Positions 3,075 to 17,483 of a DNA stretch of 64,000 bases are shown here, in pieces. Each line of letters starts with the position of its first letter. Position 1 is the stretch's first letter. The notes below the pieces were generated by a model. That model worked only from the letters and a program-made list of their open reading frames with translations. It did not search any database and had not been told where the DNA came from. The translations under genes and the position numbers were made by a program. The stretch is taken from assembly GCA_024654025.1 (NCBI GenBank), contig JANLIR010000002.1:168959-232958 (forward strand), given 5' to 3'. This DNA comes from Candidatus Wolfebacteria bacterium (GTDB lineage Bacteria; Patescibacteriota; Minisyncoccia; UBA6257; UBA9933).

Positions 3075-4358
3075 ATGTATAATAATCGCCTAAAAATAGT
3101 TTTGTTCGGAGCCGGAGTTATTGCACTTATTTTAGTTGTTCTAAGTGTTTTTTGCGTAATTCCGATAACAAAAAATTGTTCAAAAACTTCCGTGTCCGGA
3201 AAATTAATTTTTTGGGGAGTTGACGATGTTTCCGCTTATCAAACCGTTATAGATAATTACAGCAAGTTTTATAATAGAAAAGTTCAAATTCAATACCAGC
3301 AAATCCCCGAAGCGGATTTTGAAAATACTTTTGTTCGGGCAGTGGCTAAAAATCAAGGGCCCGATATTTTAATGTTTCATAACTCCTGGCTTATAAAACA
3401 GGGCGATCTTTTAGCTCCGGCCACTGACGCGCAAATTTCTTTAGCAAATATTCGCCAGCTTTTCCCGCAGGTTGTTGAAAAAGATTTTACTTACCAAAGT
3501 AAGGTTTACGCGCTTCCTTTATATCTCGACACTCTCGCGCTTTTTTACAATAAAGATATTTTTAATGCTAACGCCGTTGTTTTTCCGCCGGCAAATTGGA
3601 GTGATTTTACGAATTTAGCAACGAGGCTTACGAAAAAACAAGCTAACGGCCAGATTTTACAATCCGGCGCGGCTATCGGCAGCTCTGATAAAAATATCGT
3701 AAACGCAACTGATGTTTTAAATACGTTAATGCTTCAATACGGTTCTTTAATAGTTGATCCATCTTTTATGCGAACTGATTTTAGCGGTAAAGCAACCAGC
3801 GCTTTTGATTTTTACACCGGCTTTGCCAAGCCAGCTAGCAGTAATTATGTTTGGAACCAAAATTTAGGAAACTCGTTTGATTTATTCAGCCAGGGGCAGG
3901 CGGCGATGATTTTCGGTTATGCTAACCAGATTTCATATCTCAAACAAAAAAATCCGCTTTTGAATTTCGAGGTGGCGTCTATGCCGCAGGCCGATCCTTC
4001 AAATCCTAAAAATTACGCCGCTTATTGGGGCTTGGCAGTTTCTTCTAAAAGCGCGAATTCCGAACTTGCCTGGAGTTTTATAAAATACCTGACAACTGAC
4101 CCGCAAAACTCTCTTACTTATCTTCAAGCGACAAAACGGCCGCCGGCTTTGAAAATTTTAATCAAACAATATCAGAATGATCCGGATTTAAATGTTTTTG
4201 CAAACCAAGCGCTTGCGGCAACTTCATGGTATCAGCCCGACTCTGACCAAACCAGCCAGATTTTTTCAAGCGCGGTCGAATCGGTTTTAAGCGGCCAGCT
4301 TACTTCTGGGCGCGCGCTGGAAAAAGCCGCTTCTCAAATAAATAATTTATTTAAATAA
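3075..4358 (+). CDS. extracellular solute-binding protein (ABC family 1-like), N-terminal membrane anchor
   Basis: N-terminal TM helix, then LIFWGV...GPDILMFHNSW...ALPLYLDTLALFYNKD, typical of sugar-type SBPs. No permease gene nearby. Confidence 0.6.
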   Translation: MYNNRLKIVLFGAGVIALILVVLSVFCVIPITKNCSKTSVSGKLIFWGVDDVSAYQTVIDNYSKFYNRKVQIQYQQIPEADFENTFVRAVAKNQGPDILMFHNSWLIKQGDLLAPATDAQISLANIRQLFPQVVEKDFTYQSKVYALPLYLDTLALFYNKDIFNANAVVFPPANWSDFTNLATRLTKKQANGQILQSGAAIGSSDKNIVNATDVLNTLMLQYGSLIVDPSFMRTDFSGKATSAFDFYTGFAKPASSNYVWNQNLGNSFDLFSQGQAAMIFGYANQISYLKQKNPLLNFEVASMPQADPSNPKNYAAYWGLAVSSKSANSELAWSFIKYLTTDPQNSLTYLQATKRPPALKILIKQYQNDPDLNVFANQALAATSWYQPDSDQTSQIFSSAVESVLSGQLTSGRALEKAASQINNLFK

Positions 4359-4363
4359 AATTT

Positions 4364-4702
4364 ATGAATATCGCATACGCTGCTCTAACTCCTTTAGTCC
4401 AATGCGGTCCCGGAACAGCCAAGCTCGAGTGCACTATTTGTGATCTATTTCAATTGGCTCAAAATATTTATAATTTTGTTATTGTTTTTGCGTTTGTTTT
4501 GGCTTTAGGAGCTTTGGTTTGGGCGGGGTTTAAAATAATGACTTCTGCCGGCGATCCGGGAAAATATAAAGACGCGGTTGGAAAAATCAGGACGATTTTA
4601 ATCGGCATAGCCATTCTGCTTTTAGCCGGGTTTGTGGTTGATTTAGTTTTGAAAGTCCTTGTCGGCGGCAGCTTGGGTCCGTGGAATAAATTGCCTTGCT
4701 AA
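4364..4702 (+). CDS. TrbC/VirB2-like (T4SS-pilin-like) small membrane protein, paralog 1
   Basis: Cys-rich N-terminus (QCGPG..LECTICD). Two TM helices flank the motif WAGFKIMTSAGDPGKYK. Confidence 0.55.
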   Translation: MNIAYAALTPLVQCGPGTAKLECTICDLFQLAQNIYNFVIVFAFVLALGALVWAGFKIMTSAGDPGKYKDAVGKIRTILIGIAILLLAGFVVDLVLKVLVGGSLGPWNKLPC

Positions 4703-4732
4703 AAAACCAAAAAAAATTTATTATAAATATTA

Positions 4733-5152
4733 ATGAAATCGCTTTTGTTTAAAATTTCTATAGTATCAGCGATAATTTTCGCGGTTTTTACCACGAGTAT
4801 TTTTGTAGAAAAAGTTTTGGCAGTGTCCGGTGGAGGGGTTAATACAGCGGCGCCGGGCGGCGGAGTTGATTCTGTTGGCGGCGGTAACGGACAGCTTTTT
4901 AATTATTTCGGATCCGGTTCGACTCTTGACAGTGTCCTTTCCAAAATAATCGATTATTTTATCGGTGTTTCGGTTTCAGTGGCTGTGATAATAGTTATCT
5001 ATGGAGCGTGGAAAATGATGACCGCGACAGGCGATCCTAAAAAATTCCAAGAAGGCCAAAAAACAGTTTTGTACGCCGCTATCGGGTTGTTGGTAATTTT
5101 ACTCGCAAGAGGGATTATCGGCGCGTTGTATGGGATAATACAAACGTTATAA
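4733..5152 (+). CDS. TrbC/VirB2-like (T4SS-pilin-like) small membrane protein, paralog 2
   Basis: Signal/TM helix, Gly-rich linker, motif YGAWKMMTATGDPKKFQ between two TM helices. Confidence 0.55.
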   Translation: MKSLLFKISIVSAIIFAVFTTSIFVEKVLAVSGGGVNTAAPGGGVDSVGGGNGQLFNYFGSGSTLDSVLSKIIDYFIGVSVSVAVIIVIYGAWKMMTATGDPKKFQEGQKTVLYAAIGLLVILLARGIIGALYGIIQTL

Positions 5153-5192
5153 TAAATATAAAGAAAAAGGTCGAGAATGAGAAATCAAAAAA

Positions 5193-5558
5193 ATGAAAAA
5201 AGTTTTACAAAAAATTATTTATTCAGGAGCGATTTTATCGCTCGTATTGCCGGTATTTTCGTTTGCCGCGATATTTACTCCGCCAGGCCAGGGGCAACCT
5301 GGAAATATTCCTATAACCGGCCTCTCTAATGTGTATGACACGCTAGATACGGTAGCTAATTATTTGTTGGGATTATTAATTGCTTTGGCGGTTGTTTTCA
5401 TTGTTTGGGGAGCGTTTCAGTTTTTAACTTCCGGTGGAGATGAAGCAAAAACAAAAGCGGCAAGAAATCATATTCTCTGGGCTCTTGTAGCTGTCGCGGT
5501 TGGGTTACTTGCTAAAGGGCTAGTTGCCGCGATAAGAGGAATCGCCGGAAACTTATAA
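5193..5558 (+). CDS. TrbC/VirB2-like (T4SS-pilin-like) small membrane protein, paralog 3
   Basis: Signal/TM helix, motif WGAFQFLTSGGDEAKTK between two TM helices. Confidence 0.55.
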   Translation: MKKVLQKIIYSGAILSLVLPVFSFAAIFTPPGQGQPGNIPITGLSNVYDTLDTVANYLLGLLIALAVVFIVWGAFQFLTSGGDEAKTKAARNHILWALVAVAVGLLAKGLVAAIRGIAGNL

Positions 5559-5580
5559 ATTTATTTTCAATGATTCAAAA

Positions 5581-5608
5581 AATATCCCGAGTGTCGGGAT
5601 ATTTTTTT
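5581..5608 (+). terminator. rho-independent terminator after the pilin-like genes
   Basis: AATATCCCGA gtg TCGGGATATT followed by a T-run. Confidence 0.7.
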
Positions 5609-5728
5609 ACTATTTTCATCCGTATTAATCCGTATGTATTTATAATTCGCACAAATCTGTTAGAAACAAAAAAATCCCCGCCTGCGGCCGAAGCCACAAG
5701 CGGGGTGTAAAAAACTAGTTAGTTCACG

Positions 5729-6679
5729 TCAATAAATCTTCAGGAGACCCGGTTGTCCCATGGCCACTTTTATTGGGCCGAGCGGGTTTCCGTTAGTTTT
5801 CCATTTCCAAAAGCCAACCGGTCCCGCTTTCCGTGTTTCGCCGGAGCCCTCGCCAATTATGATCTGGTAAGAGTTTTGGGCGTCAATCGTTATGATTGTC
5901 CCAATGGGCGGGGTCCATGAAGTCACCGCAACGCTCCCGGCCGGAATAAAAACACCATTTCGTCCTTCTTCCGGCGTGACCACGATTTCTTTGAGAACCG
6001 GCGCACTGGGCGCAACCCCCGCTTCCGCGTTAGATGGTTTCATGGTGAGAGTCGTCACGATGCCATTGTCGATTCCCTTTGCTGAGTTCCTTGCGAGCTC
6101 GGCTGTGCGGGGAAGAAACAATGAAATGACGATTGTTATGAAAATCATCGATGCGACAAACGTTATTGCCCTTCCGTTGAAGATGGAAGTGCCTCCGAAA
6201 AGCCGAGTTCCGATAAAGATGATAAAGGCCAAGAGCAGCAGCAACGGGATCAGCTCGGGTCGTTTATCTATCGGAATGATGATAAGCATCAGGGCGAATG
6301 ATAACTCGGCGAATAATACGTGCAGCGTCAGTCGAACATACCGCTCTCCAAACCCCACTGCTGTTCTTCGCCAGATCGCGTCGATTATTAACGCAATCGG
6401 CGCGGCCAGTAAAGAAAGCAAGATCGTGAAGAACGCCCAAACAAGTCCCGCAACCGAAATCCACATCGAGAATCCGAAAATTCCCAGAAGCAGGATTGGT
6501 ATGGGCAGAAGCATCATTACGATTGCGAGCCGCGAAAGCCCGACCCGATATACTTCAAAATCGGTTCTGTTATCGCCCCCAACAAGGGCAATGACCTCGG
6601 CGGCGTCCGCCGCGCCGGTGATGATTGTGTCGAGAATGAGCCGCAGCGTTAAGAGTATTTCACGAAGTGTTTCACGCAT
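5729..6679 (-). CDS. hypothetical polytopic membrane protein with soluble C-terminal domain (GC-rich cassette)
   Basis: Start moved to ATG at 6679, preceded by GGAGGctcctcATG. It overlaps the upstream stop by 8 nt. Several TM helices. Confidence 0.6.
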   Translation of the reverse strand: MRETLREILLTLRLILDTIITGAADAAEVIALVGGDNRTDFEVYRVGLSRLAIVMMLLPIPILLLGIFGFSMWISVAGLVWAFFTILLSLLAAPIALIIDAIWRRTAVGFGERYVRLTLHVLFAELSFALMLIIIPIDKRPELIPLLLLLAFIIFIGTRLFGGTSIFNGRAITFVASMIFITIVISLFLPRTAELARNSAKGIDNGIVTTLTMKPSNAEAGVAPSAPVLKEIVVTPEEGRNGVFIPAGSVAVTSWTPPIGTIITIDAQNSYQIIIGEGSGETRKAGPVGFWKWKTNGNPLGPIKVAMGQPGLLKIY

Positions 6680-7373
6680 GAGGAGCCTCCTTTCGATATT
6701 TGGCAGTCTTCCGGCCGCGTGCTGTGCGGCGGTTATTGAGCCATTCAGCCCAACGGTCGTTGAGGGGTTGAAGTTCTGAACCAATTACTCCAAATACTTC
6801 GTTGAGACGGATCCCAAACATTCTTAGCCACTGCATGACGATGTCGTGGTTGAGAAACTCGATTGCGCTGTCGAATTCTTGCGGAGGAAGTTCGCCGAGC
6901 CAGACGAAGAAGTTGATGGTATCTTCATCGGTCGTTTCCTTCCCTTCCTCGGATTCTTTAAGTATTAAAACCTTTCCGAGACAATCCACAAGAAGATTCT
7001 CTTCGCCAGGCCGGTAATTTCCTTCGTCAGAATAAAGCCGGGGCCGACAAAACTGCCGATCTTCCTGCCTCTTTCTGATGGTTTTTGCCGCGACTTTCTT
7101 CTTTTCATCTTCGGAAGATTCCATCTTCTGTAAAAAAACGAGAAGCTTGGCGCGGTAATGGTCACTCATCTTCGCCTGCACTTTTTTAGCCGTTTCTACG
7201 GCTGCCTTGCTCCCGACTTCGCGAATGACCTCGGCGGCAGCGGTTCTTGACCCCATCTTCATAAGCCCCCAGGCTTTTCTGAGGAGTTCAAAAACAGCAA
7301 TACCCCCTGCCGTTATCCCGAGTTCCTTTCCGACTTCGCCAGCGCTGAAATCAGCTTTCTTTTCCTCTGCCAT
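6672..7373 (-). CDS. hypothetical protein (GC-rich cassette, first gene)
   Basis: ORF preceded by aaAGGAGGacgccgaccATG. No family recognised. Confidence 0.55.
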   Translation of the reverse strand: MAEEKKADFSAGEVGKELGITAGGIAVFELLRKAWGLMKMGSRTAAAEVIREVGSKAAVETAKKVQAKMSDHYRAKLLVFLQKMESSEDEKKKVAAKTIRKRQEDRQFCRPRLYSDEGNYRPGEENLLVDCLGKVLILKESEEGKETTDEDTINFFVWLGELPPQEFDSAIEFLNHDIVMQWLRMFGIRLNEVFGVIGSELQPLNDRWAEWLNNRRTARGRKTAKYRKEAPHA

Positions 7374-7543
7374 GGTCGGCGTCCTCCTTTCAGGATTTAG
7401 ATAGTTTCACTACGGGGTTGACGTAAACTATTTATAAGAGCAAATTTTGGAATAGTTGCCTACCCCAAAATACTTTGATATAATACAATAAAATTATTTA
7501 AAAGTCAACTAATGATTTTGTTAAAAAATAACAGCTAATAATG

Positions 7544-7549
7544 TATAAT
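7544..7549 (+). promoter_or_regulatory. candidate -10 box (TATAAT) for tRNA-Leu
   Basis: TGTATAAT lies 15 nt upstream of the tRNA 5' end. The -35 is weak. Confidence 0.3.
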
Positions 7550-7564
7550 TTATTTGTTTAATAT

Positions 7565-7649
7565 GTCCTCGTGGCGGAAATGGAATACGCGCAGCGCTTA
7601 GGACGCTGTCCCGCAAGGGTTGTGGGTTCGACTCCCACCGAGGACACCA
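7565..7649 (+). tRNA. tRNA-Leu(UAG), CCA encoded
   Basis: Acceptor GTCCTCG/CGAGGAC. Anticodon arm CAGCG CTTAGGA CGCTG. Long variable arm (CCC gcaa GGG). T arm GTGGG TTCGACT CCCAC. Ends ACCA. Confidence 0.9.
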
Positions 7650-7650
7650 A

Positions 7651-7686
7651 ACTATAAATCCCTTCGAGACCGAAGGGATTTATAGT
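7651..7686 (+). terminator. perfect hairpin directly after tRNA-Leu
   Basis: ACTATAAATCCCTTCG aga CGAAGGGATTTATAGT. Confidence 0.6.
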
Positions 7687-7809
7687 TTATATATCACAAG
7701 GGAGGAGAAGGGTATTTAAAAAAGCAAACTGCTTTGCTTTTTTAAAACCCCGGCTCTGGAGGAGTAATTTTCCATGTTTATTTATGAACGAAAAATTACG
7801 GGGGAAGAG

Positions 7810-7831
7810 GACTCCCACCGAGGACACAAAA
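7810..7831 (+). repeat. direct repeat of the tRNA-Leu 3' end (att-like)
   Basis: GACTCCCACCGAGGACAC at 7810-7827 is identical to 7630-7647 of the tRNA. It abuts the 3' end of the recombinase gene. Confidence 0.8.
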
Positions 7832-8800
7832 TTATCCCCTTCTTCTTCCGTGAAATGTTTTGTGTATTTCTTTGAGTTCTTTATTTGTTAAATGCGTGTA
7901 AATTTGGGTTGTGGAAATATTGCTATGGCCTAAAAGTTCTTGCACAGACCTTAAATCCGCTCCTCCGATTAATAAATCAGTGGCAAAGCTATGCCGGAGC
8001 AAATGCGGGTGGATTTTTTGCGGTATCCCCGCTTTTCGGCCGTAAAAATCTATCAAGCGCTGAATTGCGCGAGGAATAATTCTCCCGATAACTTTCGGAT
8101 TTGCTTGCCCTGAGCTCATCGAGTCTGAGACTCTCAGAGTCGAATGACTTGTCGAACGGGTTGCTTTAGTTAAGCTTACAAACAGCGCTTCTTCGGCATC
8201 GGTTCGTTTTCCTAAATAATTTTTTATAGCTTTCTTGGCGGATTCGGATAAAAACACCACTCTTATTTTCCCGCCCTTGCCCCGCACGGAAATTTCTCCC
8301 CTATTCAAATCAAAATACCGGCTCAAAGAACATAATTCTGAAACGCGAAGCCCGGTTGAAAACAAAACTTCCAAAATCGCTTTGTCGCGAAGTCCTTTTA
8401 AATCGTTTGTTTTGGGCGCTGCCATAAGCCGTTCCAAATCCGAGTATTCCATTATATTGATTTGCCGGTTTGGAATTCTAGGAAGCTCGATTTTTTCCGA
8501 AGCTAAAACCCTGTAGTCGTTTTTCGCCAAAAATTTCAAAAAGTTTCTAAGCGCTATTATGTAGTAGCTTTGGGTTGTGCGTTTAAAGTTTTCTCCATCT
8601 CTGGGATTATGAAGCCGCGCCAGATAGATCCGAAAATCTCTTACGTTGTCAGCGGTGATATCGCCCTCGGATTTTATTTTGGCGAAATCAAAAAACTTCG
8701 TTAAATAGTGCTCATAATTTTCCCGCGTGTCTTTAGTCCTGCCTTTTTCAATCTCAAGATAATCAAGATAGTTTTTGAGGAGTTTGTTTATGTCAGCCAT
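7832..8800 (-). CDS. tyrosine recombinase (XerC/XerD-like integrase)
   Basis: Catalytic-domain motifs LFSTGLRVSEL, HPHLLRHSFATDLL, LLGHSNISTTQIYTH. Start placed at MADINK (8800). Carries a roughly 25-aa internal insertion. Confidence 0.85.
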   Translation of the reverse strand: MADINKLLKNYLDYLEIEKGRTKDTRENYEHYLTKFFDFAKIKSEGDITADNVRDFRIYLARLHNPRDGENFKRTTQSYYIIALRNFLKFLAKNDYRVLASEKIELPRIPNRQINIMEYSDLERLMAAPKTNDLKGLRDKAILEVLFSTGLRVSELCSLSRYFDLNRGEISVRGKGGKIRVVFLSESAKKAIKNYLGKRTDAEEALFVSLTKATRSTSHSTLRVSDSMSSGQANPKVIGRIIPRAIQRLIDFYGRKAGIPQKIHPHLLRHSFATDLLIGGADLRSVQELLGHSNISTTQIYTHLTNKELKEIHKTFHGRRRG

Positions 8801-8806
8801 AGCTTC

Positions 8807-8841
8807 GCAACCTGTAACTTGTAACAATTAACTTATAACAA
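8807..8841. repeat. 5 x 7-nt degenerate heptad array
   Basis: GCAACCT GTAACTT GTAACAA TTAACTT ATAACAA. Confidence 0.65.
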
Positions 8842-8865
8842 ATCAGTTTTAAATATTTCTCCCTC

Positions 8866-8900
8866 TAGTTACCAGTCACTGGTTACCAATCACTAGTTAG
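8866..8900. repeat. 5 x 7-nt degenerate heptad array
   Basis: TAGTTAC CAGTCAC TGGTTAC CAATCAC TAGTTAG. Confidence 0.65.
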
Positions 8901-9006
8901 ATAATACCATTGTTCTGTCGTAAAATAAATGGTTTTATAACATGTCTTATTAAAGCAGAGCATTTTTATTGACAAATAAACATTAAAATGATACCCTTTA
9001 AAAATC

Positions 9007-17255: not shown

Positions 17256-17483
17256 AAAATAGGGGTTTTGCCGAATTAAAATGTTGGGAATGTTTTACAA
17301 CCAACACTTTGAATCAAATTTTAAGGGTCTAAAGTGTCAAAAATGTTTATCAAGTTTTGATAAACAATCTTTTACGACAGATTAGCTTAAAATTGGGCTA
17401 AAAAGTGTTTATCAAGTTTTGGCAAACATTTTCGGAAAGTTTAGTAAATAGTTCGGCAATCCGTTATTTGATGGATTGCCGAA

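What the first reader, a model, noticed from the sequence alone, without database searches (positions are those of the whole stretch)
7565..8800. tRNA-Leu(UAG) with its 3' end duplicated 160 bp downstream, adjacent to a tyrosine recombinase; the only tRNA here with encoded CCA
GACTCCCACCGAGGACAC (7630-7647, T arm to acceptor end) is repeated exactly at 7810-7827, immediately before the 3' end of the Xer-like gene. Duplication of a tRNA 3' end is the classic signature of integrase-mediated insertion (attL/attR).

Here the repeats enclose only about 160 bp, containing a perfect 16-bp-stem hairpin. That suggests an excised or decayed element, or a tandem att array.

This tRNA encodes its CCA. The Val, Ile, Tyr, Thr, Trp and Leu(CAG) genes in the window do not.
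Basis: partly seen in the sequence, partly recalled or inferred. Interest (0 to 1): 0.55.

Follow-up and report, generated by a model that had tools for sequence, protein, structure and literature searches.

The report
Tiny insertion scar in tRNA-Leu gene
A 180-base piece of foreign, gene-less DNA has been spliced into the end of a leucine tRNA gene of an ultra-small (Wolfebacteria) bacterium, leaving the classic duplicated tRNA tail, but the recombinase gene next door is the cell's own conserved Xer enzyme rather than the inserted element's integrase.

Summary
The 18-mer GACTCCCACCGAGGACAC occurs only at 7630-7647, in the 3' end of tRNA-Leu(UAG), and at 7810-7827, 4 nt from the xer stop codon. 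None is expected by chance.

The closest relative found (L003) has the empty site. There the intact tRNA, without CCA, abuts xer exactly where the window keeps the partial copy. So 162 bp of foreign DNA plus an 18-bp target duplication were inserted into the T-loop-to-acceptor segment.

The same insert (95-96% identical) sits in the same tRNA of a more distant relative (L004/L005/L006). Flanking genes there are only 82-88% identical and the right-hand flank is different.

The insert has no gene. It consists of three hairpins that look like convergent terminators. The encoded CCA comes from the insert's first bases, and L006 lacks it.

The recombinase is a Xer-type enzyme. It keeps the same rpsO-xer-tRNA-Leu position in relatives, including those with empty sites, so it is not part of the insert.

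Best reading: a miniature or decayed att-flanked remnant of a tRNA-targeting integrative element (CIME-like). No parent element or integrase was found. It is an ordinary kind of feature in an unusual host, of modest interest.

The parts
7565..7649 (+). tRNA-Leu(UAG), intact. The last C of the 18-bp repeat (7647) plus the first two insert bases (C7648, A7649) read as an encoded CCA.
   Evidence: ARAGORN; Rfam tRNA at 52.9 bits; promoter-like TTAAAA-17-TATAAT at 7521-7549.
7630..7647 (+). Repeat copy 1 (attL-like). It runs from the 4th base of the T-loop through the 3' T-stem and 3' acceptor strand to the discriminator plus one base.
   Evidence: Exact 18-mer, 2 copies in the window, 0 expected. 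Extends to 7655 at 24/26.
7648..7809 (+). 162-bp insert with no gene. Absent from the closest relative; 95-99% identical copies at the same tRNA in L073, L004, L005 and L006.
   Evidence: Empty site in L003. blastn of the insert against all loci. Flanking identities of 82-88%. Strongly structured: z = -7.3 on the plus strand and -9.7 on the minus strand.
7649..7688 (+). Hairpin 1: an 18-bp perfect stem with a 4-nt loop, directly after the tRNA 3' end. Probably the tRNA terminator.
   Evidence: Inverted repeat I5. Fold. One compensatory C-G to U-A change and loop changes in L006 and L004.
7715..7746 (.). Hairpin 2: an A-tract, a GC-containing stem and a T-tract. It looks like a bidirectional intrinsic terminator and is the probable xer terminator on the minus strand.
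   Evidence: Inverted repeat I1. Folds on both strands. Invariant in all four distinct copies.
7764..7799 (-). Hairpin 3. It pairs better on the minus strand, where two G-U pairs replace mismatches. L004 has a base change that keeps the pair.
   Evidence: Minus-strand fold; alignment.
7810..7827 (+). Repeat copy 2 (attR-like). This is the displaced original 3' end of the tRNA, still 4 nt from the xer stop codon as in the empty-site relative.
   Evidence: L003 reads ...GACTCCCACCGAGGACAC-AAATTATCCCC..., against ...GACTCCCACCGAGGACAC-AAAATTATCCCC... in the window.
7832..8800 (-). Xer-type tyrosine recombinase (322 aa), resident and syntenic. It is a neighbour of the insert, not part of it.
   Evidence: Pfam Phage_integrase 2.2e-40 plus an N-terminal SAM-like domain. 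NCBIfam XerC 234, XerA 229 (cut-off 220) and XerD 229 bits. PDB XerA 4a8e and XerD 1a0p. Conserved synteny. Catalytic R, K, H-x-x-R, H and Y columns invariant.

Best explanation
The 18-bp repeats are the attL-like and attR-like junctions of a 162-bp, gene-less DNA segment. This segment entered the T-loop-to-acceptor part of tRNA-Leu(UAG) by site-specific, tyrosine-integrase-type recombination.

The incoming DNA carried its own copy of the tRNA 3' end, as attP sites of tRNA-targeting elements do. The tRNA was therefore rebuilt at the left junction, now followed by insert bases that happen to read CCA. The original tRNA 3' end was pushed 180 bp downstream, where it still sits 4 nt from the xer stop codon.

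What remains is a miniature or decayed, non-autonomous remnant, CIME-like: att sites without integrase or transfer genes. Its three hairpins now act as terminators between the convergent tRNA and xer genes.

The adjacent recombinase is the cell's own conserved Xer and is not the element's integrase.

Shown here:
- the insertion with target duplication;
- the empty site in the sister lineage;
- the same insert in a second lineage with a different right flank;
- the Xer type and conserved synteny of the neighbouring gene.

Inferred:
- that an integrase made the insertion, and which one;
- that a larger parent element once existed;
- that the hairpins terminate transcription.
For: (1) The repeat is exact, unique and non-random. 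It covers the segment used by class II (T-loop) tRNA-integrating elements. For comparison, the Ms6 attP core is 26 bases running from the T-arm to the tRNA 3' end (PMC1762012).

(2) Empty versus filled site. L003 is the closest relative found (pnp-NYN-rpsO 92.0% identical). Its intact tRNA lies 3 nt from xer, with the same downstream flank that follows the window's second copy.

(3) A tRNA-to-xer gap of 1-11 nt is seen in about 11 distinct lineages with Xer identity of 60-88%. The tight arrangement is therefore ancestral and the 180 bp is derived.

(4) The same insert is present in L004/L005/L006 at 95-96% identity. Flanking genes there are 82-88% identical and intergenic DNA about 71%. The shared block ends exactly at the end of the second repeat plus AAAA. 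Beyond that point the two lineages have unrelated sequence.

(5) The distribution is window +, L003 -, L004 +, L001 -. This conflicts with the gene tree, in which the window and L003 are sisters. At least two precise gain or loss events are needed.

(6) The insert holds no ORF of 50 aa or more and matches no Rfam family at threshold.

(7) The recombinase is outside the repeats, of Xer type, and present at the same place in empty-site genomes.

(8) Other scars at the same tRNA in relatives show that this tRNA is a recurrent recombination target. L076 and L154 carry a 3' fragment of a different tRNA-Leu allele behind an intact one. L081 and L084 are 100% identical from xer up to the T-loop and unrelated beyond it.
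Against: No parent element, attP junction or second integrase was found. Five exact-pattern scans for insert or junction sequences in IMG/VR, one in the JGI metagenomes and a blastn against GenBank phages were all negative. An IMG/VR scan for the 18-mer alone found only an unrelated phage tRNA-Lys.

A 180-bp circle is too small to be a plausible recombination substrate. The present unit must therefore be a deletion derivative, or must travel as part of something larger.

The identity block starts inside the T-loop at GACT. A 7-bp T-loop overlap would be only 4/7 identical between the two partners.

All seven window-versus-L004 differences lie in loops or linkers, or preserve pairing. The high conservation could therefore reflect selection on structure rather than recent transfer.

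Only two lineages carry the insert.
Confidence: 0.6

Rival explanations
1. IMEX-like reading. The neighbouring Xer itself catalysed, and may still catalyse, integration and excision of the mini-element. It would use the tRNA-Leu T-arm/acceptor segment next to its own gene as a pseudo-dif site.
For: xer and tRNA-Leu(UAG) lie tail to tail in many Wolfebacteria and Paceibacteria. The gap between them is a hot spot holding variable DNA of 100-1700 bp. None of the inserted segments examined carries its own integrase. Single-Xer systems such as XerS and XerH have their site next to the gene (own knowledge). The right end of the insert forms an inverted repeat with the attR copy (CGGGGGA...TCCCACCG), which mimics the T-stem.
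Against: A different conserved motif sits upstream of xer in about 60% of loci: TGTCG[CT]AAAA, often with a degenerate inverted partner 7-8 nt away. This is a better candidate for the Xer site. Nothing like it occurs in the tRNA or the insert. Convergent intergenic gaps tolerate insertions regardless of mechanism. No other lineage shows a tRNA 3' duplication next to xer.
Confidence: 0.1
2. The insertion is old and is retained because it works as a convergent terminator cassette or a small RNA. Its patchy distribution reflects precise deletions between the 18-bp direct repeats by replication slippage in the L003 and L001 lineages. It has not been recently mobile. The original insertion may or may not have been made by an integrase.
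For: All substitutions between the window and L004 copies are in loops or linkers, or keep base pairs, and one is compensatory. The tRNA 5' part has diverged by a similar amount, 3 of 65 positions. Direct repeats of 18 bp set 180 bp apart are good slippage substrates (own knowledge). The empty-site relatives have no terminator between the convergent genes.
Against: It needs two independent precise losses, yet also argues that the cassette is beneficial. In L001 the gap holds unrelated DNA with no trace of the insert. The right flank differs completely between the two carrier lineages and starts to differ exactly at the repeat end. That is what independent site-specific insertions predict.
Confidence: 0.22
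3. Chance repeat, local tandem duplication or assembly artefact.
For: None beyond the short length of the repeat.
Against: 0 of 100 shuffles gave any 18-mer match. The 5' 65 nt of the tRNA are not duplicated, and the 162 bp has no second copy in the window. Five independent assemblies show the same structure.
Confidence: 0.02

Closest known systems
[quoted passage not shown]
   Same: It is flanked by direct repeats, one of which is the 3' end of the target tRNA gene. It has no recombinase or transfer genes inside. It is polymorphic between close relatives.
   Different: It is only 162 bp long, with no cargo. No parent ICE, IME or prophage was identified, and no tandem partner element is present. 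The host is a CPR/Patescibacteria genome. Mobilisation has not been shown.
Class II (T-loop) tRNA-integrating phages and islands, for example mycobacteriophage Ms6, whose 26-base attP core equals the T-arm-to-3'-end of tRNA-Ala (PMC1762012; class scheme of Williams 2002, from own knowledge)
   Same: The identity block runs from the T-loop to the end of the tRNA. The tRNA is reconstituted at one junction, and a partial 3' copy sits at the other.
   Different: The identity block starts inside the T-loop, so only 4 of the 7 loop bases are shared, and it is shorter at 18 bp. No integrase lies within the repeats.
IMEX elements and xer-dif modules (CTX phage, GGI; XerS/difSL and XerH/difH adjacency; own knowledge)
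   Same: A Xer-family recombinase gene lies directly beside the insertion site. The inserted DNA lacks its own recombinase.
   Different: The repeats are tRNA sequence, not a dif-like 11-6-11 palindrome. They do not resemble the candidate Xer site found upstream of xer.

Membership tests
att-flanked integrated-element remnant at a tRNA gene (CIME-like) | Direct repeats, one of which is the 3' end of an intact tRNA gene | tested here: met
   Exact 18-mer at 7630-7647, inside tRNA-Leu, and at 7810-7827.
att-flanked integrated-element remnant at a tRNA gene (CIME-like) | Precise empty site (attB) in related genomes | tested here: met
   L003/L075 have the tRNA 3 nt from xer, with the same flank as the window's second copy.
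att-flanked integrated-element remnant at a tRNA gene (CIME-like) | No integrase or transfer genes between the repeats | tested here: met
   The insert is 162 bp. The largest ORFs are 33-46 aa and are not conserved beyond the repeat.
att-flanked integrated-element remnant at a tRNA gene (CIME-like) | Derivation from a larger ICE, IME or prophage with the same att ends | tested here: inconclusive
   No match to insert or junction sequences in IMG/VR, JGI metagenome contigs or GenBank phages. Only exact patterns could be scanned. CPR mobile elements are poorly sampled.
att-flanked integrated-element remnant at a tRNA gene (CIME-like) | Excision or integration by a cognate integrase acting on the att sites | not testable with these tools
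   This needs read-level junction analysis or biochemistry.
Xer-type chromosomal tyrosine recombinase (XerC/D/A) | Catalytic domain with R, K, H-x-x-R, H and Y, plus an N-terminal SAM-like core-binding domain | tested here: met
   PF00589 at 2.2e-40 and PF02899 at 1.6e-11. The invariant columns include R152, K175/K178, H266, R269, H292 and Y301.
Xer-type chromosomal tyrosine recombinase (XerC/D/A) | Score above a curated Xer equivalog threshold | tested here: met
   NF040815 XerA_Arch scores 228.8 against a cut-off of 220. XerC (234 against 335) and XerD (229 against 330) are below their own cut-offs. Best PDB hits are XerA 4a8e and XerD 1a0p.
Xer-type chromosomal tyrosine recombinase (XerC/D/A) | Vertical inheritance in conserved core-gene synteny | tested here: met
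   The order rpsO-xer-tRNA-Leu, with pnp and NYN alongside, is kept in L001-L006 and L155. Homologues are about 70% identical across many Wolfebacteria.
Xer-type chromosomal tyrosine recombinase (XerC/D/A) | A cognate dif site | tested here: inconclusive
   The candidate motif TGTCG[CT]AAAA, with a degenerate inverted partner, lies upstream of xer in about 62 of 96 dereplicated loci. A partner scoring 7/10 or better is present in 26% of sites, against 4.8% in shuffles. It could instead be a promoter or operator.
Integrase belonging to the inserted element (phage or island int) | The gene lies within the att-flanked segment and co-varies with the element | tested here: not met
   xer lies outside the repeats. 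It is present in genomes with the empty site (L003) and with unrelated gap contents.
IMEX (element integrated at dif by the host Xer) | Flanking repeats are dif-like Xer binding sites | tested here: not met
   The repeats are tRNA T-loop/acceptor sequence. No TGTCGYAAAA-like motif occurs in 7400-7900.
Rfam small RNA families (RsaE/RoxS, ar14, SurA) | Score at or above the family gathering threshold | tested here: not met
   The best hit is RsaE at 34.7 bits against a threshold of 79, on the minus strand 7652-7753.

The most novel reading that the evidence does not exclude
The 180-bp unit is a live, non-autonomous miniature integrative element: a tRNA-targeting analogue of a MITE. It hops between Wolfebacteria lineages and is mobilised in trans. 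In the boldest version the mobilising enzyme is the universally conserved Xer gene that sits tail to tail with tRNA-Leu(UAG). That would make this tRNA a second, IMEX-like Xer target in CPR bacteria. It would also explain why the xer/tRNA-Leu gap is a hot spot for variable DNA.
Probability: 0.1. Interest if true: 0.7.

Novelty: new member of a known kind. Interest (0 to 1): 0.3.

Why it matters
Mobile DNA in CPR/Patescibacteria is poorly known. This locus gives a clean filled-versus-empty example of site-specific insertion into a tRNA gene in Wolfebacteria, and it marks tRNA-Leu(UAG) as a recurrent recombination target there.

It also corrects two tempting annotations. The neighbouring 'integrase' is the resident Xer. 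The single 'encoded CCA' is a junction by-product.

The side observation of a conserved motif just upstream of xer offers a testable candidate for the uncharacterised dif site of these single-Xer bacteria.

Otherwise the feature is a common kind of scar and carries no cargo.

Tried and rejected
- **Further 18-mer copies.** I searched the window with up to 3 mismatches, and any tRNA fragment of 9 nt or more by blastn-short. Only the two known copies were found, so there is no larger island.
- **Partial tRNA copy left of the GC-rich ORF pair (5540-5800).** None was found.
- **Parent element or attP junction.** Five exact-pattern scans for insert or junction sequences in IMG/VR, one in the JGI metagenome contigs and a blastn against GenBank phages were all negative. 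A sixth IMG/VR scan for the 18-mer alone gave one hit, an unrelated tRNA-Lys in a phage tRNA array.
- **Spurious ORF as a proxy.** I used the 73-aa ORF called across the insert in L004 to find other copies in the 5.8-billion-protein collection. It found only itself.
- **Exact-protein look-up of the window's Xer.** It is not on record, although an identical NCBI entry (P0001) is listed.
- **Rfam on the region.** Only the tRNA passes threshold.
- **Pfam and PHROGs on cargo ORFs found in the xer/tRNA gap or 5' of the tRNA in relatives, and on the window's two GC-rich ORFs.** There are no mobile-element hallmarks. One ORF is a PaaX/Cas2-like regulator.
- **Terminus of replication near the locus.** There is no GC-skew switch.
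- **tRNA 3' duplications next to xer in the other lineages, about 150 loci.** None was found apart from the window and L004 groups.

Full report
**1. Observation**

ARAGORN finds tRNA-Leu(UAG) at 7565-7649 on the plus strand. Its acceptor 3' strand, discriminator A and an encoded CCA end at 7649.

The 18-mer GACTCCCACCGAGGACAC occurs at 7630-7647 and 7810-7827 and nowhere else in the 64 kb, even with three mismatches allowed. None of 100 dinucleotide-preserving shuffles produced a match. Without gaps the similarity extends to 26 nt at 24/26.

The second copy ends 4 nt before the stop codon of a minus-strand 322-aa tyrosine recombinase gene, 7832-8800. The other seven tRNA genes in the window lack an encoded CCA.

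**2. Organism and neighbourhood**

The recombinase is 100% identical to an NCBI protein from a Candidatus Wolfebacteria MAG. It has thousands of homologues, about 70% identical among the best-scoring ones, which where named come from Wolfebacteria, Paceibacterota and other Patescibacteria.

The local gene order is: gyrA, a solute-binding protein, three T4SS-pilin-like genes, two unknown ORFs, tRNA-Leu, xer, rpsO, a NYN-domain gene, pnp, rpsT. This order is kept in relatives whose Xer is 86-89% identical.

**3. The recombinase is a resident Xer**

- It has the Phage_integrase catalytic domain and an N-terminal SAM-like domain.
- It scores about 230 bits on the XerC, XerD and XerA models and passes the XerA equivalog cut-off.
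- Its best solved relatives are XerA (4a8e) and XerD (1a0p).
- The catalytic R, K, H-x-x-R, H and Y columns are invariant.
- It is the only such gene in the window.
- It lies outside the repeats.
- It occupies the same position in genomes with an empty site.

It therefore does not behave as the integrase of the inserted DNA.

**4. Empty and filled sites**

In L003 (Xer 88% identical) the intact tRNA-Leu ends ...GACTCCCACCGAGGACAC and is followed directly by AAATTATCCCCTTCTTC, the end of xer. The gap is 3 nt and there is no CCA.

The window has the same junction at its second, partial copy...GACTCCCACCGAGGACAC-AAAATTATCCCCTTCTTC. So relative to L003, the window has gained 162 bp plus a duplication of 18 bp inside the tRNA 3' end.

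A gap of 1-11 nt between the xer stop codon and the tRNA-Leu(UAG) 3' end is found in about eleven distinct lineages, with Xer identity of 60-88%. The tight arrangement is therefore ancestral and the 180 bp is derived.

**5. The insert in other genomes**

blastn of the insert against all 150-odd fetched loci finds it only in two groups:

- L073, the same species, at 99.4% identity;
- L004, L005 and L006, a second species, at 95-96% identity.

Between the window and L004 the flanking genes are 82-88% identical and the intergenic DNA upstream of the tRNA is about 71% identical. The tRNA-insert-repeat block is 96.6% identical.

The shared block stops exactly at the end of the second repeat plus AAAA. 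After that point L004 has 120 bp unrelated to the window's flank.

On pnp-NYN-rpsO the identities are:

| Pair | Identity |
|---|---|
| window vs L003 | 92.0% |
| window vs L004 | 88.4% |
| window vs L001 | 86.6% |

The window is thus closest to L003. The insert is nevertheless present in the window and L004 and absent from L003 and L001. At least two precise events are required: two gains, or a gain followed by losses.

**6. What the insert contains**

There is no ORF of 50 aa or more. The 33-46-aa ORFs run out across the repeat and are not conserved beyond it. No Rfam family is matched at threshold. The best hit is RsaE at 34.7 bits against a threshold of 79, on the minus strand.

The insert is very strongly structured, with z = -7.3 on the plus strand and -9.7 on the minus strand:

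- Hairpin 1 (7649-7688) starts at the last base of the tRNA.
- Hairpin 2 (7715-7746) is an A-tract, stem and T-tract, as in a bidirectional terminator.
- Hairpin 3 (7764-7799) pairs better on the xer-sense strand.

All seven differences between the window and L004 copies lie in loops or linkers, or keep pairing. L006 has one compensatory change in hairpin 1.

I infer that the insert now supplies terminators to the convergent tRNA and xer genes. These genes have none between them in the empty-site genomes.

**7. The CCA**

The empty-site tRNA reads GGACA-CAA. In the window, the last C of the repeat plus the first two insert bases (C, A) read GGACA-CCA. L006 carries the same insert with one C fewer and has no CCA. 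The encoded CCA is therefore a junction by-product and differs among the carrier genomes.

Across the wider set of loci, tRNA-Leu genes with an encoded CCA almost always have a gap to xer of 150 nt or more. Tight-gap genes, with one exception, lack CCA. This trend is weak and the loci are not independent. It is compatible with 3' ends often being supplied by incoming DNA.

**8. Mechanism**

The insertion has three features together: the target's T-loop-to-acceptor segment is duplicated, the tRNA is rebuilt at one junction, and a precise empty site exists in relatives. This is the signature of tyrosine-integrase recombination between an attP that carries the tRNA 3' end and the tRNA gene. It corresponds to class II, T-loop integration, for example the 26-base core of Ms6 (PMC1762012).

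Being gene-less yet att-flanked, the unit fits the definition of a CIME-like remnant (PMC5704250).

Three caveats apply:

- No parent element or cognate integrase was found.
- A 180-bp circle is an implausible recombination substrate.
- The identity block begins inside the T-loop.

The rival that the neighbouring Xer did it cannot be excluded, but I consider it unlikely. A different conserved motif, TGTCG[CT]AAAA with a degenerate inverted partner, sits just upstream of xer in most loci and is the better candidate Xer site. Nothing like it occurs in the tRNA or the insert.

The second rival is an old insertion kept by selection and lost precisely by slippage. It remains credible for the distribution of the insert but does not explain its origin.

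**9. Wider context seen on the way**

tRNA-Leu(UAG) beside xer is a recurrent recombination site in this clade.

- The gap holds unrelated DNA of 100-1700 bp in many lineages.
- L076 and L154 have a different intact tRNA-Leu allele followed by a 47-nt 3' fragment of yet another allele.
[quoted passage not shown] They are divergent within the rest of the tRNA and unalignable beyond it.

**10. Verdict**

This is a real insertion scar of a known kind in a poorly explored phylum. It carries no cargo and has no demonstrated mobility. The link to the adjacent recombinase and the significance of the CCA do not. Interest is modest at 0.3. The most novel reading not excluded is an active mini-element mobilised by Xer, at a probability of about 0.1.

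Noticed in passing
window 8916-8942 (+); also upstream of xer in about 62 of 96 dereplicated related loci: The conserved motif TGTCG[CT]AAAA lies on the strand opposite to xer. It is 20-40 nt upstream of the xer start in most loci and 116 nt upstream in the window. It often forms an imperfect palindrome, TGTCGTAAAA-TAAATGG-TTTTATAACA in the window. Some loci (L038, L127, L130, L032) carry 3-4 copies. It is a candidate dif site adjacent to a single Xer, as with XerS and XerH, or else an operator. A second exact copy in the window, at 17370-17379 (-), was not examined.
   Followed up: partly
L003, L020, L027, L035, L037, L080, L083, L092, L094, L095, L132 versus about 25 other loci: xer and tRNA-Leu(UAG) are convergent and tail to tail across Wolfebacteria and Paceibacteria. 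The gap is bimodal: either 1-11 nt or 100-1700 nt of lineage-specific DNA. In six loci (L123, L124, L127, L129, L130, L135) the tRNA is inverted relative to xer.
   Followed up: partly
L076 1619-1680 and L154 1990-2050 (minus strand of the loci): An intact tRNA-Leu(UAG) of a different allele (GCCCTCC...GGGGGGCA) is followed by a 47-nt 3' fragment of a third allele (...GGGTTCAAGTCCCTCCCTGCCCAC). L154 has an extra block of about 135 bp between them. This is a separate integration or replacement scar at the same tRNA.
   Followed up: partly
L081 versus L084, about 3400-3900: Two contigs are 100% identical from xer through a 152-bp spacer up to the T-loop of tRNA-Leu. The rest of the tRNA then differs at about 11 positions, and everything beyond is unalignable. 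So a recombination breakpoint lies in the T-loop in a second lineage.
   Followed up: partly
window 8105-8164 (-), inside xer: The window's Xer has a 19-aa loop insertion (TRSTSHSTLRVSDSMSSGQA) that most homologues lack. P0004 and P0015 have shorter versions. The DNA encoding it contains a palindrome-like stretch (gagtctgagactctcagagtc).
   Followed up: no
window 5729-7373 (-): Two overlapping ORFs of unknown function (351 and 233 aa) have about 50% G+C against about 40% around them. They have no Pfam, NCBIfam or PHROG hit. They are conserved in L003 and L004 but replaced by an unrelated 514-aa ORF in L001. L155 and L156 have an extra PaaX/Cas2-like ORF between them and the tRNA. So there is also a variable region on the 5' side of the tRNA.
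   Followed up: partly
L001 6988-7380, L154 1528-1923, L156 1074-1451, L076 (gap between xer and tRNA): A 125-131-aa ORF with CxxC pairs and no family hit occupies the xer/tRNA gap in several relatives. It is always preceded by a GC-rich terminator hairpin directly after a tRNA 3' end or tRNA fragment.
   Followed up: partly
window 8810-8900: The segment between the xer start and the conserved motif holds short tandem and inverted repeats: TGTAACTTGTAACAATTAACTTATAACAAA, TAGTTACCAGTCAC / TGGTTACCAATCAC, and the palindrome ACCAGTCACTGGT. These are not conserved in L001, L003 or L004.
   Followed up: no
L081/L013/L084 spacer and L008 spacer; L004, L076 and L154 near the xer end: Other lineages have different spacers between tRNA-Leu and xer. 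These are built around long perfect palindromes centred on GCGATCGC or TATAGTATACTATA, with C-rich and G-rich flanks. They may be independent terminator-like inserts.
   Followed up: no
window 7652-7785 (-): On the xer-sense strand the insert has an unpaired C-rich stretch (CCCUUCUCCUCCC) between hairpins. It gives sub-threshold Rfam hits to RsaE/RoxS, ar14 and SurA. On the tRNA-sense strand this stretch reads as a very strong Shine-Dalgarno-like AAGGGAGGAGAAGGG.
   Followed up: partly
window 4364-5558 (+): Three consecutive small genes encode T4SS-pilin/TrbC-like proteins (PF18895). They are conserved in all close relatives.
   Followed up: no
L153 5316-5391 (IMG/VR UViG_3300028800_000066): A large phage contig has an array of at least 14 tRNA genes. 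Its tRNA-Lys(CUU) happens to share the same 18-nt T-loop/acceptor sequence.
   Followed up: yes
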